A stretch of DNA of 64,000 nt from a virus (IMGVR_UViG_3300020202_000066:25960-89959); one strand, 5' to 3'; positions 15,145-61,663 are shown, counted from the stretch's first letter. Notes: generated from the sequence alone by a model not told the origin. Program-made: numbers and translations.

Positions 15145-15680
15145 TCATTCTGCACTCCCGCTCTCGATGTCCAGCCGGCGCGCGATCGCCTCAGCCTTCT
15201 CCTCCTCGCGCTCGTAGCGGTAGTCGATCCAGCGGAGGCGGATGGACGCAAGCGCCGACGGGATCATCGAGACGAACAGCAGCGCAAACACGAGCGGCTG
15301 CGACACGCCGAGGAAGACCAGTCCGAGCGCCGCTCCTGCCAGCCAGCGTTCCGCCTTCTCCCTCAGTGACCGCCGCTGCTCACGGTGGCGGTCACGGCGC
15401 CGCACTTGGGCGACGGCCAACTTCACCAGGGCCGAGCCGCTTCGGTCGACATTCAGATCTTGGCTCGGGGGCGCGGGGATCACGCCGTGCTCGAAGCTCA
15501 CCGGCCCCACCACCCGTCATCGGAGGGGATCTCCGGCAGGGCGGTAGCGATGAACAGTCCCGCTGCCGCGGCGCCCGCTACAGCGCAGGCGAGCTCCCTG
15601 GCAGGGCCGGCCTCAAGAAGCGCGTAGCTGCAGGTGGCCGCGCACAGGATGCACCCGAGGAGAAAGCTGATCGGGTTCAT
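15145..15680 (-). CDS. Two small membrane proteins (15498-15680; 15145-15513)
   Basis: Hydrophobic segments. Confidence 0.45.
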
Positions 15681-15726
15681 GGGTCCTCCCTTCTCGGGAG
15701 AACCCTAGCCGCGATCGAGAGGAGTT

Positions 15727-16191
15727 CTAGGGCTCGGGCGCGATCTCACTCCGGGCAGGTTCGCGCTCCGCCCCGGTCTCGGTCGAGCCGTCGGGGAACA
15801 CCACGATGCAGGGAACGCCGCTTTTCCGGGCGAAATCGATCGTGTACCACGTACCGCCGCGAGCCTGGTGCGTGGACTCGCGCGGGCAGCCGATGATGAG
15901 GTCGACACTCCGCACGATCGCCCGATTCCGAGCGAAGTGAGTGGCTGGAGGGGCGACCTCATCGTTGAAGGAGAAGCAACCCTGCCATGGGTCGCCGTCG
16001 GGACCGGGCATGGAGTGGATCCGCGGGCGCGGCTGCATCTTGTCCGCGATGGCGGCTACCTCGACGTCGACGCCGCTGCACTGCCCGTGGACGAACAGTG
16101 CCGGGCGGTGCTCCTGAAGGAGGTCGAGCACGCGCTCGCGCTGCGCAGGCGTCATCCCGTAGCGGGTTCCGGTGATTCCGATTCGGGTCAT
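15727..16191 (-). CDS. SLOG-superfamily nucleotide-binding protein
   Basis: IGITGTR, HG.C.GVD, ARNRAIV, GGTWYTI. Confidence 0.75.
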   Translation of the reverse strand: MTRIGITGTRYGMTPAQRERVLDLLQEHRPALFVHGQCSGVDVEVAAIADKMQPRPRIHSMPGPDGDPWQGCFSFNDEVAPPATHFARNRAIVRSVDLIIGCPRESTHQARGGTWYTIDFARKSGVPCIVVFPDGSTETGAEREPARSEIAPEP

Positions 16192-16489
16192 CGCTGCTAC
16201 CTCGCGATCTTGGTTTCGAGAGATCACGATAGCATGTCGTTCAGGTGGCGGTCGCTGGCCTTGGACGGCCGACGCGCTTGCACGTCACCTTGAACTTCCG
16301 GAACTCCTGGATGCTCAGCAGCTCTGGCGCGGCCGCGGAGAGGTACACGATCAGCACGTCTCCGGCGCCGACACCCACCGAGACCAGCCCACGAGTGCCG
16401 GACTTGTCCAGGCTGGCGTAGAGTTCACGTGCGGCGGTGGCGGCCGTCATAGCTCGAAGCGTACCAGCTCTGGCGGCAAGCGAACGCGA

Positions 16490-16571
16490 TGGGGCCGTGC
16501 CGAATCGAACGGCCAAGCGCGGCGGCATCTGCTCTACAGGCAGACGGTGGATCCCACTCCCCAGCAGCCCC
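16490..16571 (-). tRNA. tRNA-Tyr(GTA)
   Basis: tctgc-ctGTAga-gcaga; long variable arm. Confidence 0.8.
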
Positions 16572-16582
16572 GGGAACCGAAG

Positions 16583-16657
16583 TACCGCCAGCGGGATTCG
16601 AACCCGCACTGTCACGACTCTCGATCGTGTGCCTCTGCCAGGTTGGGCTACGGCGGC
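16583..16657 (-). tRNA. tRNA-Leu(GAG), short variable loop, C33
   Basis: cacga-tcGAGag-tcgtg. Confidence 0.75.
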
Positions 16658-16664
16658 AAGAAAG

Positions 16665-16748
16665 TACCCGGGGTGGGAGTCGAACCCACAAATGGACTCG
16701 CGTCCGCTGGGTCTGAGCCAGCTGGCTATCCCGTTCGCCTACCCGGGC
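16665..16748 (-). tRNA. tRNA-Leu(CAG)
   Basis: gctgg-ctCAGac-ccagc. Confidence 0.85.
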
Positions 16749-16764
16749 AAGATGAACCGCACCA

Positions 16765-16837
16765 TGCCGACCCGCGGGATCGCACCGCGTTCTCCCGCTC
16801 TTCAGGCGGGCGTGAGGACTACCTTCACCAGATCGGC
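16765..16837 (-). tRNA. tRNA-Phe(GAA)
   Basis: cccgc-ctGAAga-gcggg; TGC T-loop. Confidence 0.8.
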
Positions 16838-16848
16838 GAGAGATCGCG

Positions 16849-16922
16849 TGCCCGCCCCGGGATTCGAACCCGGAACCTTCCGCTTTTGAGACGGATGCCT
16901 CTACCGGTTGGACCAGGCGGGC
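16849..16922 (-). tRNA. tRNA-Leu(CAA), short variable loop
   Basis: tccgt-ctCAAaa-gcgga. Confidence 0.85.
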
Positions 16923-16927
16923 GAGAG

Positions 16928-16998
16928 CAGGCCCTGACGGATTCGAACCGCCACCCGACGGGTTGGAGCCGTCGATGCTGCCGTTACACCAAGGACCT
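16928..16998 (-). tRNA. tRNA-Trp(CCA)
   Basis: gacgg-ctCCAac-ccgtc. Confidence 0.9.
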
Positions 16999-17014
16999 GA
17001 GTGGGGAGTGCAGC

Positions 17015-17090
17015 TGGCTCCGGGAGCAGGGATCGAACCTGCGGCGGACCGGTTAACAGCCGGCTGCTCTGCCAACTGAGCTATCCCGGA
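17015..17090 (-). tRNA. tRNA-Asn(GTT)
   Basis: Canonical cloverleaf with encoded CCA. Confidence 0.92.
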
Positions 17091-17096
17091 GCGAGC

Positions 17097-17168
17097 TGGT
17101 TGCGGGCCCGGGTGTCGATCCCGGCATTCCAGGCTTATGAGGCCCGGCTGATCGCCGAATCGCCCGCA
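17097..17168 (-). tRNA. tRNA-Met(CAT), initiator-like, reduced D-arm
   Basis: ccgggc-ctCATaa-gcctgg; ends cccgcaacca. Confidence 0.75.
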
Positions 17169-17187
17169 ACGAGTTAGGGCTGGGCCG

Positions 17188-17364
17188 TCAGGCCCCGGGA
17201 TTGAGAAGGCGCAGAAGGCACCAGGCCCATGCGGGCCCGGTAAAGAGGGGGAGCCGCCACAAGTGCGGCCGTGCAGCGGGATAACGCCGAGGGACGGACG
17301 TGGTGGTCGGGAGCGCAGCACCGACCGCGGGCGCTGCCGGGCGGATCGAATGCTGTCCAGTCAT
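17188..17364 (-). promoter_or_regulatory. Putative leader ORF (58 aa) for the Met/Asn/Trp/Leu/Phe/Tyr tRNA sub-cluster
   Basis: GAGGAG RBS; 3' half contains TAT, TTG, TGGx3, CTC/CTT, TTT, CTG, AAT. Confidence 0.65.
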
Positions 17365-17435
17365 CGGTGGCTCCTCGGGGCACGTCAGGCCCTCGGGGTC
17401 GACGTAGGATCCGACGGCGGCGGTGGGTGCAATAA

Positions 17436-17506
17436 AGGCCCCAGAGAGAATCGAACTCTCGCCACCGGGTTACAAAGCCGGCGCTCGACCTTCGAGCTAT
17501 GAGGCC
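17436..17506 (-). tRNA. tRNA-Thr(TGT), imperfect stems
   Basis: ttTGTaa loop; T-arm gagag-ttcgatt-ctctc. Confidence 0.7.
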
Positions 17507-17510
17507 GAAG

Positions 17511-17582
17511 AGCCCTGACGGCGGATCGAACGCCGGTCTGCTGCTTACGAAACAGCCATCCTACCAACTGGACGATCAGGGC
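17511..17582 (-). tRNA. tRNA-Thr(CGT)
   Basis: gctgt-ttCGTaa-gcagc. Confidence 0.88.
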
Positions 17583-17585
17583 TGA

Positions 17586-17657
17586 AGCTCTCGCCGGGGG
17601 TCGAACCCGGGTTTCGGTCTTACCAAGACCGCGTGCTACCAGCTGCACCACGGGAGC
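17586..17657 (-). tRNA. tRNA-Thr(GGT)
   Basis: cggtc-ttGGTaa-gaccg. Confidence 0.88.
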
Positions 17658-17661
17658 GGAG

Positions 17662-17733
17662 TGCGGGTCGAGCGAGTCGAACGCTCTCATCCAGTTTGGA
17701 AGACTGGCATGCAACCACCAACATCTGGCCCGC
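17662..17733 (-). tRNA. tRNA-Gly(TCC)
   Basis: ccagt-ctTCCaa-actgg. Confidence 0.85.
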
Positions 17734-17743
17734 ATGAAACTGA

Positions 17744-17816
17744 AGTGCCCGGCGGGGCTCGAACCCGCGACCTCCTCGTTGGCAACGAGGCGTTCCGCCA
17801 ACCGAACTCCGAGCAC
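17744..17816 (-). tRNA. tRNA-Gly(GCC)
   Basis: cctcg-ttGCCaa-cgagg. Confidence 0.85.
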
Positions 17817-17820
17817 AGGA

Positions 17821-17893
17821 TGTGGCGAGAGGGAGTCGAACCCTCGTGACCGGATTCACAGCCCGGCGCCTGTACCGCTCGGCCATCGCCACC
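17821..17893 (-). tRNA. tRNA-His(GTG)
   Basis: ccggg-ctGTGaa-tccgg; G-1 encoded. Confidence 0.88.
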
Positions 17894-17911
17894 ACGATCA
17901 GCACTCGAACC

Positions 17912-17988
17912 TGGCGAACATGATGGGACTCGCACCCACTTTCTCCGGCGTGACGGGCCGGCGTCTCGACTGCTTCGACCTCATGTCC
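17912..17988 (-). tRNA. tRNA-Asp(GTC), C33
   Basis: ccggc-ccGTCac-gccgg; encoded CCA. Confidence 0.8.
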
Positions 17989-17992
17989 GTAG

Positions 17993-18066
17993 TTCGCCCG
18001 GAGGGACTCGAACCCCCGAAATGGCTGGGTGTAGGCCAGCTGCCTTTGCCGCTTGGCGACGGGCGA
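17993..18066 (-). tRNA. tRNA-Val(TAC), C33
   Basis: gctgg-ccTACac-ccagc. Confidence 0.82.
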
Positions 18067-18071
18067 ATGGA

Positions 18072-18142
18072 TGGAGCTCCAGGGAATCGAACCCTGATCT
18101 GCCGGGTGCAAGCCGACCGTCCTCCCGTTGAACGAGAGCCCC
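18072..18142 (-). tRNA. tRNA-Ala(TGC)
   Basis: GGGGC 5' end, G3:U70, ctTGCac loop. Confidence 0.88.
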
Positions 18143-18143
18143 A

Positions 18144-18183
18144 GAAAGAGAAACCCCCGGGCCAGGTGAGTGGTCCGGGGGCC
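18144..18183 (-). terminator. Intrinsic terminator (attenuator) immediately 5' of tRNA-Ala
   Basis: cccccggacc-loop-ggcccggggg then tttctctttct. Confidence 0.85.
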
Positions 18184-18206
18184 TTGAGCGCGCTCTTCAG
18201 TTCGCG

Positions 18207-18284
18207 CTACAGGGCGGACCACCCGCCGGCATCGACGCCGGCCGCGTGTGCGGTCGTCCCTGTGTGCACAGTGAAGAGCAGCAT
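18207..18284 (-). promoter_or_regulatory. Leader peptide MLLFTVHTGTTAHAAGVDAGGWSAL
   Basis: gatAGGAGacgaccATG; rich in T/V/H/G/A/D codons; gggtggtccg can pair with terminator arm cggaccactc. Confidence 0.8.
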
Positions 18285-18323
18285 GGTCGTCTCCTATCAC
18301 GGTCGTGGCTATCGCGGTGCAAG

Positions 18324-18395
18324 TCCTCGCGGAGAGATTCGAACTCCCAGCCGTCTGGTTCGAAGCCAGCCGCTCTTCCGCTGAGCTACGCGAGG
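18324..18395 (-). tRNA. tRNA-Arg(TCG)
   Basis: ctgg-ctTCGaa-ccag. Confidence 0.85.
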
Positions 18396-18399
18396 ATGA

Positions 18400-18472
18400 T
18401 GTACCCGGCAAGGCTCGAACTTGCGGCCGCCCTGGTAGGAACAGGGTGCTCCTCCGACTGAGCTACGGATGC
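18400..18472 (-). tRNA. tRNA-Arg(CCT)
   Basis: ccctg-ttCCTac-caggg. Confidence 0.85.
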
Positions 18473-18491
18473 AGGAGCCACACACGGGAAC

Positions 18492-18569
18492 TGGTCTGCG
18501 CGGAGGGACTCGAACCCCCGGTCTCCTGCTCCCAAGGCAGGCGCTTTCGCCAGGCTAAGCTACGCGCAG
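18492..18569 (-). tRNA. tRNA-Pro(TGG)
   Basis: cctgc-ctTGGga-gcagg; encoded CCA. Confidence 0.9.
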
Positions 18570-18572
18570 AGA

Positions 18573-18643
18573 TGCACCCACGTGGAATCGAACCACGGGC
18601 TCGGTCTTCGGAGGACCGCATCCTTCCTCTGGACGATGGGTGC
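18573..18643 (-). tRNA. tRNA-Arg(CCG)
   Basis: cggtc-ctCCGaa-gaccg. Confidence 0.88.
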
Positions 18644-18647
18644 TGCT

Positions 18648-18718
18648 TGGTGCCTCTGTCGGGAGTCGAACCCGATGGGCAGCCTTCGCAGGGCTGCCTC
18701 CAATCCCCTGGCAGAAGC
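18648..18718 (-). tRNA. tRNA-Arg(GCG), reduced D-arm
   Basis: cagcc-ctGCGaa-ggctg; encoded CCA. Confidence 0.72.
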
Positions 18719-18725
18719 ACGGAAG

Positions 18726-18797
18726 TAGGCCGTCGTGGTGCTGCCCCACGCTCCTCCGACTTATAAGGTCGGCGCTCTGCTGATGAGCTAACGGCCC
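18726..18797 (-). tRNA. tRNA-Ile(TAT)
   Basis: ccgac-ctTATaa-gtcgg; atypical T-loop ggcagca. Confidence 0.8.
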
Positions 18798-18818
18798 AGA
18801 TGGCCGGGAAGCGTGGAG

Positions 18819-18905
18819 CTATATACGCCGTCGGGGAGACGGCACCGGGGGTGGGCAGAATGGTCGCCTCGGGGCGAAGCTGGTGAGTGCGATGTGGGCG
18901 ACCAT
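18819..18905 (-). promoter_or_regulatory. Putative leader peptide MVAHIALTSFAPRRPFCPPPVPSPRRRI
   Basis: Contains AGG, CGA, CCA/CCG and ends CGA CGG CGT ATA TAG, matching the six downstream tRNAs. Confidence 0.7.
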
Positions 18906-18946
18906 GGTCCAGCGTAGCGCGCACGCGCGGTGGCTGGTGCAGATGA

Positions 18947-19033
18947 CGGAGAGCCAGAGACTCGAACTCTGACGCGGTGAACCGCCCGCCGGGTAGCAAC
19001 CGGGGCCCGATACCAGTTACGGGATAGCTCTCC
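18947..19033 (-). tRNA. tRNA-Ser(GCT)
   Basis: GGAGAG 5' end, ttGCTac loop, long variable arm. Confidence 0.88.
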
Positions 19034-19041
19034 AGGAACAG

Positions 19042-19122
19042 AGGAGGGCGGAGGTGTCGATCCCCGAGCCCGAAGGCCCCACCGTTTTCAAGACGGCTTG
19101 CCGCGCCGGCGGCGCGCCCTCC
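19042..19122 (-). tRNA. tRNA-Ser(TGA)
   Basis: gccgt-ctTGAaa-acggt, long variable arm. Confidence 0.8.
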
Positions 19123-19136
19123 AGGAACAACACCAG

Positions 19137-19206
19137 AACGCTGGCCGGGAATCGAACCCGGGCCGGTACCTTTGCAGGGCACCTCCGCGCCACGCGAATC
19201 CAGCGC
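19137..19206 (-). tRNA. tRNA-Cys(GCA)
   Basis: gtgcc-ctGCAaa-ggtac; U73. Confidence 0.8.
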
Positions 19207-19246
19207 AAAGAGAAAGCCCCCGGCGGTCCTGTGACTGCCGGGGGCT
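19207..19246 (-). terminator. Intrinsic terminator (attenuator) immediately 5' of tRNA-Cys
   Basis: agcccccggcagtc-loop-gaccgccgggggct then ttctcttt. Confidence 0.85.
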
Positions 19247-19264
19247 CTCGATCCTGCGTCGTCG

Positions 19265-19333
19265 TCAGGGCGTCGAGACTCCCGGCCAGCCGGCGCCGCG
19301 GGAACTCGACGAACAGGTGACGATGCGGATCAT
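19265..19333 (-). promoter_or_regulatory. Leader peptide MIRIVTCSSSSRGAGWPGVSTP
   Basis: gatAGGAGcagaccATG; TGT TCG TCG AGT TCC control codons; antiterminator complementarity. Confidence 0.8.
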
Positions 19334-19409
19334 GGTCTGCTCCTATCCGCGTCGGGACGCGGTGGGTGCACGCTCGGGCGATCGAAGGAGGTTCACGGGG
19401 GGGAAGAGG

Positions 19410-19712
19410 CTAGACGCCGACGGAGACGACCTTTCCCAGGATCGCGGTCCGCTTGACCCAACCGTTGATGCGGCCGATGTTGTTCCCGATGAGAGCTCGG
19501 TCTCCCTGCAGCTGCTTGACCAGATGCAAGAGGAATCCTCCACGCCAGCGGACGAACACCGCGTCTCCGACCGCTACGGCCATGGGATCGACCGGCGCGA
19601 TGGTCACGAGCTCGCCGCTCTCGATCCGGCCGCGCATCGACCCCCCGAGCGGACGAACCTTCGCGACTCGACCAGCAGAGATCTCCCGCAGCGCATCCGA
19701 TGCCCAGCCCAT
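19410..19712 (-). CDS. Peptidase S24/S26-like domain protein inside the tRNA array
   Basis: G.SM...I..GE.V..P..GD.V...LH.V motif. Confidence 0.65.
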   Translation of the reverse strand: MGWASDALREISAGRVAKVRPLGGSMRGRIESGELVTIAPVDPMAVAVGDAVFVRWRGGFLLHLVKQLQGDRALIGNNIGRINGWVKRTAILGKVVSVGV

Positions 19713-19801
19713 CGCCTGACTCCTCCGGCGACCTTCGTGCGGCCGCCACCGATGCCGGGCGAGTAGGTCGCGCGCTGCGATTCGGGTGCGCGGATCTCGA
19801 G

Positions 19802-19887
19802 AGGACCGGAAGGGGATCGAACCCTTCGTGCGCCTCGCGGCGCGACGGCTTAAAAGGCCGCTGCCGACACCAGTCGGCCACCGGTCC
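19802..19887 (-). tRNA. tRNA-Lys(TTT) with long variable arm
   Basis: gcggc-ctTTTaa-gccgt; variable hairpin gcgcc-gcga-ggcgc. Confidence 0.75.
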
Positions 19888-19889
19888 GA

Positions 19890-19960
19890 TACCCCCGCCA
19901 GGAATTGCACCTGGGTCTCCACGTCATCAGCGTGGCATCCTGCTGTTGAACGACGGGGAT
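19890..19960 (-). tRNA. tRNA-Ile(GAT), G37
   Basis: ccacg-ctGATga-cgtgg. Confidence 0.8.
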
Positions 19961-19965
19961 GCGGA

Positions 19966-20037
19966 TGAACCCGCCGGGATTCGCACCCGGATGCCCGGAT
20001 TAAGAGTCCGGTCCGTTGCTGTTACGGTCACGGGTCC
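19966..20037 (-). tRNA. tRNA-Lys(CTT)
   Basis: ccgga-ctCTTaa-tccgg. Confidence 0.85.
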
Positions 20038-20049
20038 AGAGGAGGGGAG

Positions 20050-20122
20050 CAGCTCCTGATCGTGTCGAGCGATCACCTTCCGGGTCAAAGCCGGACGTGC
20101 AGAGCCGCTACACCAAGCAGCC
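20050..20122 (-). tRNA. tRNA-Gln(TTG)
   Basis: tccgg-ctTTGac-ccgga. Confidence 0.75.
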
Positions 20123-20131
20123 GGGGGAGAG

Positions 20132-20202
20132 CAGCCGCCCAGGGAATCGAACCCCGACCCTCTCGGTCAGAACGAGGTGTGCTGCCACTACACCCGGCGG
20201 CT
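20132..20202 (-). tRNA. tRNA-Gln(CTG)
   Basis: ctcg-ttCTGac-cgag. Confidence 0.82.
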
Positions 20203-20397
20203 TCGGAATTGATCCAGCTGGTTGACGGTGGGGCGGTGAAGCGAGAGCAGCGCCTCACTCTTACCCGCCGAGCGCCCTCGGCAGACCCCTCCGCCGACCA
20301 GCTACGCCTGGCGTTGCTGGATGGGTTTGGCCCGTCCGGGCCCGGGAATGCCGGCACCCGCGACGGGCCGACGCTTGAGCAGGAAGGAGCGGAGGAG

Positions 20398-20470
20398 TAG
20401 CCCGCCAGGGACTCGAACCCTGCTTTCCTGGCTGAGAACCAGGTGTCCTGGCCGGATAGACGAGCGGGCC
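20398..20470 (-). tRNA. tRNA-Glu(CTC)
   Basis: cctgg-ttCTCag-ccagg. Confidence 0.9.
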
Positions 20471-20476
20471 ATGAGA

Positions 20477-20548
20477 TAGCCCGCCGGAGACTCGAACTCC
20501 GCTTCCCCGTTTGAAGGACGGGGGACTTCACCCATAGTCGAGCGGGCC
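20477..20548 (-). tRNA. tRNA-Glu(TTC), C33
   Basis: cccgt-ccTTCaa-acggg. Confidence 0.85.
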
Positions 20549-20674
20549 GCGAGGAACGCGAGAAGGGCCCCGAGGGGCCGGCGTTCGAGCGGACCGGTGA
20601 GCGAGGGTGAGGAGTGCATGCGCCGGCATAGCGCTGCCCGGCCGGCGCGGGTGCATGTCGAGGACGACTGCGAG

Positions 20675-20941
20675 CTACTGGCCCGTCGACGTCGGATGCG
20701 GAGGCGGGTTGGTTTCGAGGTGCTCGAGCAGCGCGCGTACTGCGCAATCCTTCGACTCGATCAGCTTCCTGAGCGCCACGGTGCGCTCCGCGCTGCCGGG
20801 GAGCATCTGGACGAGCTGGTGAGCTAGCACGCAGTACGGCTCGCTGGCCTTCTGCAAGAAGAACGGCAGGTGCGCGAAGCGGAAGAACTTCAGCAGGGGC
20901 TCGGGGGGCGGTGCCGCGGGGACTTCGGTCGTGTCGGTCAT
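20675..20941 (-). CDS. Small helical phage protein (possible Acb2/Tad1-like hairpin)
   Basis: FF.F.HLP..LQ..S...LP..AERTVALRKL.E.KDCAVRA; GAGGAG RBS. Confidence 0.6.
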   Translation of the reverse strand: MTDTTEVPAAPPPEPLLKFFRFAHLPFFLQKASEPYCVLAHQLVQMLPGSAERTVALRKLIESKDCAVRALLEHLETNPPPHPTSTGQ

Positions 20942-21452
20942 AGGCAGACTCTCCTCGTGGTCGGAGCCAGAATGACTTGGGCGTCGGTGTGAGCCGCTGG
21001 AAGCTCCCCGGCGTCAGGGCCCCGCGTGCGATGGAACCGGGTCTTGTCCCCACGGGCCTGTGCTTCGGCCAACCTCGACCGTCAGCAGCTCGGGCGAACC
21101 GTAGGCGCGCCGGGGCGCGGGCGCAAGCACTGTCAGCCGGGGATAGCGAGGGCCACCAGGCTGACGACCGCGACCGACTCCAGGATCGCGACGAAGTCGA
21201 ACAGCAGGATGGCTCGCTCCGTCGGCTCGAACGACCTTCCGTCGAGCCAACGGGCGATCAGGTACGTCACGGATACCTCCCTTCAGCGCGGCAGCACGAC
21301 CTCCGTCGGCGTGTGTCCGTTCACCAGGTAGTAGATCAGCCCGTGCCAGCCGTAGCAGTGAACGATCCACGCGAGGATCGGGATCCCGATGAGGATGAAG
21401 AGGATGAGCACGGCGGCTTCATCGGATGATTCGCCGCGTCGGTTGAGGCGGG

Positions 21453-21728
21453 TCACTTCGCATCGTCTCCCACACCGGTGAACTTCACCGAGCAGCGGAG
21501 GTGCTTGCCGGGCGTGCTGGCCCACCAGTCGTAGAGCCACGCGACGAGGGCGAACGGGGTCACGAGGAGGGCGCACACGCCGGCGACCAGCAGAGGTCCG
21601 CCGATCAGAAGGATGACCAAGAGCCACGGGAAGGCCAGCGGCGTGCAGCCGAGCGCAGCAACCCACCCCGGCCAGATCTGAAAGCCCCATCCGATCAGGG
21701 ACACGATCGCGAGCGCATATGGCATCAC
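21453..21728 (-). CDS. Small membrane protein
   Basis: Two to three hydrophobic segments. Confidence 0.5.
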   Translation of the reverse strand: MMPYALAIVSLIGWGFQIWPGWVAALGCTPLAFPWLLVILLIGGPLLVAGVCALLVTPFALVAWLYDWWASTPGKHLRCSVKFTGVGDDAK

Positions 21729-61227: not shown

Positions 61228-61298
61228 GCCTCCGTGGGCCAGTGGCTGGCCAGTCGGCTTCAAACCGATGCAGGCCGGTTCGATCCCGGCCGGGGGCG
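61228..61298 (+). tRNA. tRNA with UCA anticodon (opal suppressor-like)
   Basis: gcctccg/cgggggc acceptor, ggcca/tggcc D-stem, gtcgg-ctTCAaa-ccgat, gccgg-ttcgatc-ccggc; TATGCT -10-like box just upstream. Confidence 0.85.
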
Positions 61299-61312
61299 CA
61301 TAGGAGGTCCCC

Positions 61313-61663
61313 ATGGTCTTCACGTGAATCTCCGATCCCGCCTATGTGTACGTCCTAGTGCGCTCTGACCTCACGGTTCCGCAGCAGGCAGTGCAGTCTG
61401 CCCATGCCGTGCTTGAGGCATCCCGCCAAGGCCTGATCCCCGCAGGCATCGATCACCCGAATCTCGTCCTCTGCCACGTGTCCGGGTTCACCCAGCTTCT
61501 CGATGAGGCGGAAAATCTCCGCGCGCTGGGAGTTCAGCTGGCCGTCTTCAACGACTCGGATCACAAGTTCCCATCCACCGCTCTCGCAACGGAGCCGATC
61601 CGCGGCGACCGCCGCCGACTCTTCAAACGGTTTAGGCTTCTCAAGGAGGCCATCCATGCCTAG
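61313..61663 (+). CDS. Peptidyl-tRNA hydrolase 2-like protein with in-frame TGA at codon 5
   Basis: AGGAGG RBS then ATG GTC TTC ACG TGA; YV.VRSDL..Q.AVQS.HA...TALATEP...F..F.LL. Confidence 0.75.

What the first reader, a model, noticed from the sequence alone, without database searches (positions are those of the whole stretch)
16490..20548. Phage tRNA array partitioned by codon-matched leader peptides: a candidate on-demand tRNA replacement system
Seen: the 33 tRNAs fall into six sub-clusters. Five are preceded by a short ORF containing codons read by the tRNAs just downstream: Gln/Lys/Ile (..AAG..ATT..AAA CCC ATC CAG CAA); Cys/Ser (TGT TCG TCG AGT TCC); Ile(UAU)/Arg x4/Pro (AGG, CGA, CGG, CGT, ATA, CCA); Ala/Val/Asp/His/Gly/Thr; and Met/Asn/Trp/Leu/Phe/Tyr. 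Two have a terminator and antiterminator. Established: trp/his/thr-type attenuators sense charged tRNA through ribosome stalling, and host anticodon nucleases such as PrrC and VapC destroy tRNAs during infection. Inference: the phage senses loss of specific host tRNAs and transcribes the matching replacements, possibly as a cascade. I know of no described leader-peptide attenuation of phage tRNA clusters.
Basis: partly seen in the sequence, partly recalled or inferred. Interest (0 to 1): 0.96.

Follow-up and report, generated by a model that had tools for sequence, protein, structure and literature searches.

The report
Codon-matched leader switches gating phage tRNAs
A soil phage splits its 33 tRNA genes into blocks, each preceded by a tiny test gene written in the codons those tRNAs read; at least two of these sit in front of a switchable transcription stop, so the phage probably makes a tRNA block only when its codons are being read slowly.

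Summary
The minus strand at 20548-16490 carries 33 tRNA genes (32 firm, 1 weak) in six blocks. Each run matches its own downstream block best: 1 of 720 label permutations reaches the observed sum, and the combined dinucleotide-shuffle p is 8e-8. Thirty of 31 downstream tRNAs have a strict-wobble cognate codon in their leader, against 0 of 20,000 random ORF sets. With the peptides held fixed, only 30 of 20,000 synonymous resamplings reach that coverage.

Modules B (Cys/Ser) and D (Ala/Val/Asp/His/Gly/Thr) are paralogous trp-type attenuators. Each has a ribosome-binding site, a leader ORF, a 1:2 helix, an antiterminator and a GC hairpin with UUUCUCUUU abutting the first tRNA. Modules A, C and E have matched codon runs but no classical terminator, and A has no canonical start.

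An unrelated 618-kb phage shows the same design before its His, Trp/Cys, Gln, Glu/Asn and Thr tRNAs. Host-like arrays and three isolated phages do not (2 of 67 control gaps).

I found no relatives, no RNA data and no published account. This scan has already noted the same design on other genomes. The anticodon-nuclease trigger remains untested.

The parts
20397..20548 (-). tRNA block 1: Glu(UUC), Glu(CUC). No matched leader. A small GC hairpin (20579-20566) with a U-rich tract lies just upstream.
   Evidence: (p 0.23 for Glu codons upstream)
20203..20396 (-). Spacer A. The frame ends ...AAA CCC ATC CAG CAA CGC CAG GCG TAG. The control run KPIQQRQ is at 20328-20308 and the stop at 20304-20302. 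There is no ATG, GTG or TTG in the gap. A structured RNA follows the stop (z -2.2), with no U-tract.
   Evidence: (10 of 5000 dinucleotide shuffles)
19801..20202 (-). tRNA block 2: Gln(CUG), Gln(UUG), Lys(CUU), Ile(GAU), Lys(UUU; 87 nt with a long variable arm).
19410..19712 (-). A 100-aa gene with a weak S24-peptidase-like match, lying inside the array. It has 60-74% identical homologues in Gemmataceae and other bacteria.
19265..19343 (-). Leader B: AGGAG ribosome-binding site plus a 22-codon ORF (19333-19265). Control codons TGT TCG TCG AGT TCC lie at 19315-19301.
19207..19249 (-). Terminator B: a 13-bp GC hairpin (19249-19212, -33.2 kcal/mol) whose U-rich tract ends one base before tRNA-Cys. 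The antiterminator strand is roughly 19291-19270, including the Gly-Trp-Pro-Gly codons.
18945..19206 (-). tRNA block 3: Cys(GCA), Ser(UGA), Ser(GCU).
18819..18905 (-). Leader C: a 28-codon ORF with a weak ribosome-binding site. TACGCT lies 5 nt before the ATG. The control run is at 18872-18822 and ends CGA CGG CGT ATA TAG. The only hairpin is 6 bp (18843-18827) and is built from those codons; there is no U-tract.
18323..18797 (-). tRNA block 4: Ile(UAU), Arg(GCG, weak), Arg(CCG), Pro(UGG), Arg(CCU), Arg(UCG).
18207..18294 (-). Leader D: AGGAG ribosome-binding site plus a 25-codon ORF (18284-18207). The control run TVHTGTTAHAAGVDAGG is at 18272-18222. The four Thr codons ACT, ACA, ACG and ACC each appear once.
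18144..18183 (-). Terminator D: a GC hairpin (-22.4 kcal/mol) with UUUCUCUUUC abutting tRNA-Ala. The antiterminator pairs the Gly-Gly-Trp-Ser codons (about 18224-18212) with the terminator 5' arm and loop.
17436..18143 (-). tRNA block 5: Ala(UGC), Val(UAC), Asp(GUC), His(GUG), Gly(GCC), Gly(UCC), Thr(GGU), Thr(CGU), Thr(UGU).
17188..17378 (-). Leader E: GAGGAG ribosome-binding site plus a 58-codon ORF (17364-17188). The control run LWRLPLFTGPAWAWCLLRLLN is at 17262-17200. A 10-bp hairpin (17242-17219, -19.4 kcal/mol) lies inside the ORF. No antiterminator was found.
16490..17168 (-). tRNA block 6: Met(CAU), Asn(GUU), Trp(CCA), Leu(CAA), Phe(GAA), Leu(CAG), Leu(GAG), Tyr(GUA).

Best explanation
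The spacers of this phage tRNA array encode short leader ORFs that gauge how fast ribosomes decode the codons read by the tRNAs immediately downstream.

Modules B and D work like trp- or ilv-type multivalent attenuators. If the ribosome pauses on the control codons, the RNA behind it pairs with the 5' arm of the terminator (the antiterminator) and RNA polymerase reads on into the tRNA genes. If the ribosome runs through, or if the leader is not translated at all, the GC hairpin and U-tract form and transcription stops one base before the first tRNA. Because the product is the very molecule being sensed, each block is under negative feedback at isoacceptor resolution.

Modules A, C and E carry equally well matched codon runs at the very 3' end of their ORFs. 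They probably couple ribosome pausing to readthrough by another route: Rho-type termination, direct occlusion of a weak hairpin, or processing.

Shown in silico: the matching, the structures and the ribosome-position logic. Inferred: translation of the leaders, termination at the U-tracts, and the physiological trigger.
For: 1. Unbiased scan. A three-frame local-score scan picks KPIQQRQ, CSSSS, PRRPFCPPPVPSPRRRI, TVHTGTTAHAAGVDAGG and LWRLPLFTGPAWAWCLLRLLN. Each gap scores highest against its own downstream block. The summed diagonal is reached by 1 of 720 label permutations, at both amino-acid and codon level.
2. Shuffles. Dinucleotide shuffles reaching the observed score, out of 5000: A 10, B 44, C 124, D 19, E 8. 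Fisher combined p is 8e-8. The opposite strand scores lower in 5 of 5 gaps.
3. Coverage. Of 31 downstream tRNAs, 30 have a strict-wobble cognate codon in their leader. The exception is Met(CAU), whose codon appears only as the start. None of 20,000 random ORF sets reaches 30.
4. Isoacceptor tuning. With the peptides fixed and codons redrawn from the phage's own usage, 30 of 20,000 resamplings reach 30. The leaders use ATA, AGG, TTG, ACA and AGT, each 3-8% of its synonymous family. A/T-ending codons are 20 of 67 in the control runs against 18% in genes. This points to tRNA sensing rather than amino-acid sensing.
5. Structure. B and D fold far better than shuffles (z -4.98 and -4.85; 0 of 200 shuffles fold as well) into a long helix plus a terminator. 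Hairpin energies are -33.2 and -22.4 kcal/mol.
6. Ribosome-masking folds.
   - B: with the A-site at codons 2-12, 10-15 of 17 nt of the terminator 5' arm are paired upstream. At codons 15-21, 0-2 of 17 are.
   - D: with no ribosome, 0 of 12. At codons 2-16, 8 of 12. At codons 17-26, 0 of 12.
7. Paralogy. B and D are paralogues with 72% column identity. They keep the ribosome-binding site, ATG context, Gly-Trp codons and terminator, while the control codons and the sequences forming helix 1:2 differ.
8. Ribosome-binding sites. The leaders' TAGGAG/GAGGAG sites match the phage's own genes, 24 of 38 of which have such a site.
9. Independent replicate. In the 618-kb phage record G001, 6 of 25 pre-tRNA gaps have p<0.02, against 2 of 67 control gaps (Fisher p 0.0046).
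   - On inspection there are leader ORFs MERNDNNKNFWCNWCPQGEEIG* before Trp+Cys, MALWLQQQQI* before Gln x2, and ...VEREREGEPCLRGENN* before Glu x3+Asn x2.
   - There is also an HHH leader before His and MKRSTTNIATTATS... before Thr x3.
   - Several have TTGAC.-N17-TA...-type promoters and hairpin plus U-tract terminators. The Trp/Cys module has an antiterminator.
Against: - No relative of this phage was found, so there is no conservation or covariation evidence for these particular leaders.
- No RNA run holds the sequence, so translation and termination are unobserved.
- A has no canonical start codon.
- A, C and E lack a classical terminator (folding z-scores only -2.2, -1.25 and -0.61).
- E's hairpin lies inside the ORF and no antiterminator was found, so its logic is unclear.
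- C's shuffle support is modest (124 of 5000).
- The consensus scan found 0 sigma-70-type promoters in 15500-21500 and did not flag the B and D hairpins, because their loops exceed its limit.
- Whether the presumed planctomycete host couples transcription and translation as enterobacteria do is unknown.
- Two of the six low-p gaps in G001 look spurious: Arg(CCU) is the end of a real gene, and Leu(AAG) overlaps an undetected tRNA.
Confidence: 0.75

Rival explanations
1. Chance. Long open frames are common in 65% GC DNA, and the apparent matches are picked after the fact.
For: High-GC spacers are rich in Ala, Gly, Arg and Pro codons. Background set frequencies for blocks C and D are 0.32 and 0.38. 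A has no canonical start codon.
Against: The scan took all three frames without choosing. Only 1 of 720 permutations reaches the observed sum. Combined dinucleotide-shuffle p is 8e-8. Coverage is 30 of 31, against 0 of 20,000 random ORF sets. Synonymous resampling reaches it 30 times in 20,000. Control gaps show 2 of 67 with p<0.02. A second, unrelated phage repeats the design.
Confidence: 0.03
2. The leaders are translated codon gauges, but the output is not intrinsic-terminator attenuation. Ribosome pausing would instead control Rho-dependent termination (tna-like), RNase P/E processing, or precursor stability. This could hold for the whole array, or at least for A, C and E.
For: A, C and E put their control codons directly before the stop codon, 19-99 nt from the first tRNA, with no U-tract terminator. 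In C the 3' end of the spacer can pair with the tRNA 5' acceptor strand, and in G001 the His codons pair with the tRNA-His 5' end (by eye).
Against: B and D have strong hairpin plus U-tract terminators abutting the tRNA, and ribosome-position-dependent antiterminators. No rut-like site or Rho gene was examined.
Confidence: 0.15
3. The hairpins are ordinary terminators or processing sites between independent transcription units, and the short ORFs are unrelated small proteins or untranslated.
For: A conserved TGCACC motif lies 30-31 nt before the ATG of B, C and D (by eye) and could mark separate promoters. The S24-like gene precedes module B.
Against: The U-tract ends at the first base of the tRNA, leaving no room for a promoter, so the tRNAs downstream can only be made by readthrough. 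This reading does not explain the codon matching or the antiterminators.
Confidence: 0.05

Closest known systems
Leader-peptide transcription attenuators of enterobacterial amino-acid operons (trpL, hisL, pheL, leuL; multivalent thrL and ilvGMEDA leaders). Recalled textbook knowledge; pheL seen only in a search listing (PMC3082878).
   Same: A short ORF with a ribosome-binding site and runs of control codons. Helices 1:2, 2:3 and 3:4 are mutually exclusive. A GC hairpin with a U-tract follows. Termination occurs when the leader is untranslated (D). Several amino acids are sensed at once, as in thr and ilv.
   Different: The regulated genes are the tRNAs themselves, so the sensed molecule is the product. 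Synonymous codons are diversified so that every isoacceptor is sampled. Up to six amino acids and nine tRNAs are sensed per leader. The element is phage-borne. There is no Rfam leader family hit.
pheST (pheM leader) attenuation and T-box riboswitches of aminoacyl-tRNA synthetase genes (recalled)
   Same: Expression of translation-apparatus genes is tied to the state of the cognate tRNA.
   Different: Those systems control synthetases or biosynthesis genes, not tRNA genes. T-boxes bind uncharged tRNA directly without a ribosome, and no T-box hit was found at E<=1.
Anabaena L-array (trn operon) induced under translational stress. PMC8421152 and PMC10272220: passages read.
   Same: A long accessory tRNA array that is normally silent and is switched on when translation is impaired.
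   Different: Control there is by the repressor TrcR, which binds direct repeats over the -10 box of a single promoter. The words leader, attenuat- and terminator occur 0 times in PMC8421152, and 'leader peptide' and 'attenuat-' 0 times in PMC10272220. It is not codon-specific and not block-wise.
Phage tRNAs as counter-defence against tRNA-cleaving systems. eLife 2023 PMC10264068, Nature 2024 PMC11464382 and Nat Commun 2024 PMC11555353: search listing and abstracts only.
   Same: Phage tRNA sets replace host tRNAs lost during infection, which gives a rationale for a tRNA-shortage sensor.
   Different: Those abstracts describe sequence escape and rescue, not regulated, codon-sensed expression. 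I did not read their full texts.
tRNA array units (Tran et al. 2016, PMC4758250: abstract in a search listing; Morgado and Vicente 2018, PMC5966550: abstract read)
   Same: At least 20 tRNA genes at 2 or more per kb. Here there are 33 genes in 4,059 bp, carried on a mobile element.
   Different: Those surveys describe distribution, not regulation by leader ORFs. I did not read their full texts.

Membership tests
Ribosome-mediated leader-peptide transcription attenuator (trp/his/thr/ilv type) | Short ORF with a start codon and ribosome-binding site directly upstream of the regulated genes | tested here: met
   B, D and E have an ATG with an AGGAG or GAGGAG site 6-7 nt upstream. C has an ATG with a weak site. 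A has no ATG, GTG or TTG. So the feature is met for 4 of 5 modules.
Ribosome-mediated leader-peptide transcription attenuator (trp/his/thr/ilv type) | Control codons for the sensed amino acids or tRNAs enriched in the leader | tested here: met
   1 of 720 permutations reaches the observed sum. Combined shuffle p is 8e-8. 30 of 31 tRNAs are covered.
Ribosome-mediated leader-peptide transcription attenuator (trp/his/thr/ilv type) | Intrinsic terminator (GC hairpin plus U-tract) between the leader and the regulated genes | tested here: met
   Met for B (-33.2 kcal/mol) and D (-22.4 kcal/mol), both with UUUCUCUUU. Not found for A, C or E; E has only a hairpin inside its ORF.
Ribosome-mediated leader-peptide transcription attenuator (trp/his/thr/ilv type) | An antiterminator, exclusive with the terminator, that forms only when the ribosome sits on the control codons | tested here: met
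   Constrained folds: B has 10-15 of 17 nt paired upstream at codons 2-12 and 0-2 of 17 at codons 15-21. D has 8 of 12 at codons 2-16 and 0 of 12 at codons 17-26 or with no ribosome. Not found for E. Not tested for A or C.
Ribosome-mediated leader-peptide transcription attenuator (trp/his/thr/ilv type) | Leader translated, and readthrough responds to charged-tRNA supply | not testable with these tools
   No RNA run holds the sequence. No cultured host is known.
Known Rfam leader or T-box families | Match to a curated covariance model (Thr, His, Leu, Trp or Phe leader; T-box) | tested here: not met
   A cmscan at E<=1 over 15500-21500 gave 42 matches. They were tRNA models plus a handful of sub-threshold matches to unrelated families, with no leader or T-box family.
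tRNA array unit (at least 20 tRNA genes at 2 or more per kb) | Number and density of tRNA genes | tested here: met
   33 genes in 4,059 bp, or 8.1 per kb. The definition is taken from the abstract of PMC4758250.
TrcR-type repressor control of an accessory tRNA array (Anabaena) | Direct repeats over the -10 box of a single array promoter, with a TrcR homologue present | not tested
   No search for TrcR or its repeats was run. The consensus promoter scan found 0 sites in the region.

The most novel reading that the evidence does not exclude
Phages of several lineages carry an isoacceptor-resolved tRNA-pool sensor. Each block of an accessory tRNA array is individually gated by a leader ORF that samples one codon for every tRNA in the block. 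The phage, or the prophage inside its lysogen, would then replace exactly those tRNAs that are depleted, for instance by anticodon nucleases, by codon-usage mismatch or by stress, and would stay silent otherwise. That would be a self-tuning counter-defence and a general mechanism of tRNA homeostasis by attenuation.
Probability: 0.3. Interest if true: 0.92.

Novelty: new variant of a known kind. Interest (0 to 1): 0.85.

Why it matters
How phage tRNA arrays are expressed, and why they are split into blocks, has been an open question.

If these leaders work as the sequence implies, transcription attenuation, the classic sensor of charged tRNA, has been turned on the tRNA genes themselves. That gives direct feedback control of individual isoacceptors. 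It also turns the 'tRNA replacement' idea for phage arrays into something testable with simple reporters and defined tRNA pools. It offers a compact, portable part: a roughly 140-nt tRNA-shortage switch. It explains the block structure of arrays.

The case here is a mid-sized (90 kb) temperate phage with a full 20-amino-acid tRNA set, probably of planctomycetes, so the design is not confined to giant phages.

This scan has already reported the same design on other genomes. This window therefore adds a further, well-controlled instance rather than a first sighting. I found nothing in print.

Tried and rejected
Relatives of the phage or of the array (none found):
- blastn of the array against phages: 136 records, best cover 3%. 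Against plasmids: 23 records, 3% or less.
- Portal protein by tblastn: best about 30% identity.
- TerL in viral contigs: no relative. TerL in 401 genomes of the presumed host phylum: best 33-40% identity.
- Array DNA in 267 genomes of the presumed host order: only the S24-like gene and single tRNAs matched.
- Flanking 166-aa protein: 2 loci at 34% identity, without tRNAs.
- S24-like protein in viral contigs: only G001, searched twice.
- S24-like alignment in genome contigs: 80 loci, of which one search listed 9 with any tRNA. One of them, L136, holds a 19-tRNA array.

Pattern scans (all unproductive):
- Ribosome-binding-site/ATG motif in viral contigs: 119 stretches, none in an array.
- Terminator motif in viral contigs: 72 stretches, 8 with any tRNA, none an array.
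- Whole-module pattern in metagenome contigs: 119 stretches, 3 with any tRNA, none relevant.

Sequencing runs: three soil-metagenome DNA runs hold the sequence, and no RNA holder is listed. Laying their contigs showed only the same phage, plus one low-depth synonymous His-codon variant at 18246.

E module: no antiterminator was found, and I could not derive a consistent logic for it.

The promoter/terminator consensus scan gave nothing useful.

I considered and rejected that L136 and the host-like G003 arrays share the design: 0 of 7 and 1 of 38 gaps with p<0.02. The Fisher test used 26 gaps for G001 by mistake. The right count is 25, and the test was redone.

Supplementary files of papers were not opened. 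Those of PMC8421152 (promoter mapping) could bear on the comparison with Anabaena.

Full report
WHAT IS THERE

The window is the last 64 kb of a single 89,959-bp virus record. GC content is about 61-71%. The record encodes an integrase, an SNF2 helicase, a Mu-type portal and a tape-measure-like protein.

ARAGORN places 29 tRNA genes on the minus strand between 20548 and 16490. An Rfam scan adds Lys(CUU), Asp(GUC) and Ile(UAU) above the gathering score, and a weak Arg(GCG) at 21.5 bits. I read their anticodon loops directly. ARAGORN finds no other tRNA in the whole genome except a UCA-anticodon tRNA at 61228-61299.

Five spacers of 147-594 nt split the array into six blocks; every other spacer is 22 nt or less.

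IS THE CODON MATCHING REAL?

For each spacer I scanned all three minus-strand frames, treating stop codons as breaks. The score was a log-odds local score for membership in the amino-acid set, or the strict-wobble codon set, of each of the six blocks.

- Every spacer scored highest against its own downstream block.
- The summed diagonal was reached by 1 of 720 assignments of blocks to spacers, which is the true assignment itself, at both levels.
- Dinucleotide-preserving shuffles reached the observed score in 10, 44, 124, 19 and 8 of 5000 trials for A to E. Fisher combined p is 8e-8. The opposite strand scored lower in all five spacers.
- Of the 31 tRNAs downstream of a leader, 30 have at least one strict-wobble cognate codon in that leader. 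Only Met(CAU) does not, since AUG occurs only as the start. None of 20,000 random ORF sets drawn from the spacers' own codon pool reached 30.
- With the peptides fixed and synonymous codons redrawn from the phage's own usage (8,652 codons from 20 genes), only 30 of 20,000 draws reached 30.

The leaders use ATA (3% of Ile codons), AGG (6%), TTG (6%), ACA (8%), AGT (5%), AAA (10%) and CAA (11%). Leader D uses each of the four Thr codons once, ahead of three Thr tRNAs. Diversifying synonymous codons makes sense for a sensor of tRNA isoacceptors, not for a sensor of amino acids.

STRUCTURE OF B AND D

Modules B and D align at 72% column identity. They share GATAGGAG-NN-GACCATG, a Gly-Trp codon pair and a CCCCCGG...CCGGGGG-UUUCUCUUU terminator, but differ in their control codons. 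The ribosome-binding sites look like those of the phage's own genes, 24 of 38 of which have such a site.

Both RNAs fold far better than shuffles: -79.8 and -77.5 kcal/mol, z -4.98 and -4.85, with 0 of 200 shuffles folding as well. Each folds into a long helix containing the leader ORF, followed by a GC hairpin. The hairpins alone are -33.2 and -22.4 kcal/mol. The U-tract ends at the first base of tRNA-Cys and tRNA-Ala. There is therefore no room for a promoter, and these tRNAs can only be made by readthrough.

I then folded each transcript truncated before the terminator 3' arm, masking a ribosome footprint (-15 to +14) at each codon.

- B: with the A-site on codons 2-12 (control codons are 7-11), 10-15 of 17 terminator 5'-arm bases pair with the upstream Gly-Trp-Pro-Gly region. 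On codons 15-21, 0-2 of 17 do.
- D: with no ribosome, helix 1:2 forms and 0 of 12 arm bases are sequestered. On codons 2-16, 8 of 12 are. On codons 17-26, 0 of 12 are.

This is the textbook three-helix logic, including termination when the leader is untranslated. The post-stop segments that close helix 1:2 differ between B and D in step with the different 5' codons. This is the only covariation-like evidence available.

A, C AND E

These three modules carry matched codon runs ending 1-4 codons before the stop, but have no classical terminator (z -2.2, -1.25 and -0.61).

- A has no ATG, GTG or TTG in the spacer.
- C ends CGA CGG CGT ATA TAG. Its only hairpin (-10.9 kcal/mol) is built from those codons, and TACGCT lies 5 nt before the ATG, so the transcript may be leaderless.
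- E has a 10-bp hairpin (-19.4 kcal/mol) inside the ORF. I found no antiterminator.

Their mechanism is open. Rho-type control, direct occlusion of a hairpin, or control of processing are all possible.

INDEPENDENT REPLICATE AND CONTROLS

No relative of this phage was found in any collection.

The 100-aa S24-like gene inside spacer B led to a 618,736-bp virus record, G001, through a 49% identical homologue. G001 has 55 tRNA hits. I ran a generic pipeline on its tRNA regions: ARAGORN tRNAs, blocks split at gaps of 60 nt or more, up to 300 nt of upstream sequence, and 500 shuffles. Six of 25 gaps had p<0.02.

Inspection gave four clear leaders and one more below the cut:
- AAAGGAG, then MERNDNNKNFWCNWCPQGEEIG*, then a hairpin and UUUUCUCUUUU abutting tRNA-Trp and tRNA-Cys.
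- A TTGACT-N17-TAAACA promoter, then MALWLQQQQI*, a terminator and tRNA-Gln x2.
- TTGACG-N17-TACAAC, then a leader ending VEREREGEPCLRGENN*, a hairpin and Glu x3/Asn x2.
- TTGACA-N17-TACATT, then a leader with HHH running into tRNA-His.
- MKRSTTNIATTATS... before Thr x3.

Two of the six low-p gaps look spurious. The Trp/Cys module has an antiterminator that survives a ribosome on the Trp and Cys codons and is lost near the stop.

Controls with the same pipeline:
- A 19-tRNA array in a Schlesneria-labelled MAG contig: 0 of 7 gaps.
- Two small loci: 0 of 5 gaps.
- A Gemmata-labelled genome, with arrays of 19 and 13 tRNAs and further loci: 1 of 38 gaps.
- Three isolated phages: 1 of 17 gaps.

In total, 2 of 67 control gaps had p<0.02. 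Fisher's test of G001 against the controls gives p = 0.0046.

HOST AND SETTING

The S24-like protein is 60-74% identical to proteins of Gemmataceae and other planctomycetes, myxobacteria and Bacteroidota. The phage tRNAs are 81-87% identical to tRNAs of that order. The DNA occurs in soil metagenomes. A Gemmataceae host is therefore plausible but not shown.

COMPARISON WITH WHAT IS KNOWN

The working parts of B and D meet four sequence-level criteria of leader-peptide attenuators. They do not match any Rfam leader or T-box model. What differs is the target (tRNA genes), the isoacceptor-level codon sampling, and the phage setting.

Seven full-text searches found no account of leader ORFs or attenuation in front of tRNA genes. 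The nearest case in print is the Anabaena trn array, which is induced by translational stress. It is controlled by the TrcR repressor at its promoter. In the passages I read, the words leader, attenuat- and terminator do not occur.

Earlier notes of this scan describe the same design in at least eight other phage genomes. They are unchecked AI notes and I did not use them as evidence. They do mean that this window is a further instance, not the first.

VERDICT

The proposed trigger (anticodon nucleases) and the cascade remain conjecture. Simple negative feedback on each tRNA block explains the same data.

I rate this a new variant of a known kind, with high interest.

Noticed in passing
window 19410-19712 (-); loci L123, L124, L128, L136, L001: A conserved 100-aa protein has invariant GGSMRGRIESG and HLVK motifs and only a weak Pfam S24 match (E 0.008, below the cut-off). 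It sits inside this array, inside a 19-tRNA array (L136), and between two lone tRNA genes of the 618-kb phage, away from its main tRNA blocks. In three Gemmataceae loci it lies directly after tRNA-Ser(GGA) and tRNA-Arg. In most of the other genome-contig loci no tRNA is nearby (one search counted 72 without any).
   Followed up: partly
window 61228-61663 (+): A tRNA with anticodon UCA (ARAGORN calls it SeC; 72 nt) is followed by TAGGAGG-N5-ATG GTC TTC ACG TGA. This is in frame with a PTH2-like (peptidyl-tRNA hydrolase 2) domain (Pfam E 0.0056, below the cut-off). It is a possible UGA-readthrough-dependent gene next to its suppressor tRNA.
   Followed up: partly
window 19801-19887 (-): tRNA-Lys(UUU) is 87 nt long with a long, paired variable arm. 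It scores best against the Rfam tRNA-Sec model (51.3 bits). This is a class-II-like body with a Lys anticodon.
   Followed up: no
window 20549-20600 (-): A small GC hairpin (20579-20566) followed by CUUCUCGCGUUCCUC lies just before the first tRNA (Glu). A single GAA codon sits 6 nt upstream of it in an open frame. This is too little to call a Glu leader.
   Followed up: partly
window 19370, 18941, 18321, 17431 (-), approximate: The motif TGCACC recurs at the head of modules B, C, D and E. It lies 31, 30 and 31 nt before the ATG of B, C and D. It could be a -35-like promoter element or a mark of module paralogy (by eye). The consensus promoter scan found nothing here.
   Followed up: no
L136 2485-3865: The 19-tRNA array in a Schlesneria-labelled MAG contig also holds an EF-Tu C-terminal-like reading frame between tRNA blocks.
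   Followed up: no
L423 and L424 (G003:C9:202500-208000 and G003:C4:635000-640000): A Gemmata-labelled genome carries accessory arrays of 19 and 13 tRNA genes. The gaps before their blocks show no codon-matched leaders: 0 of 9 and 0 of 5 gaps with p<0.02.
   Followed up: partly
window 18246: One low-depth contig of a third soil run reads A instead of G here. This changes codon 13 of leader D from CAC to CAT, still His and still read by tRNA-His(GUG). A single contig at depth 2.7 may be an error.
   Followed up: no
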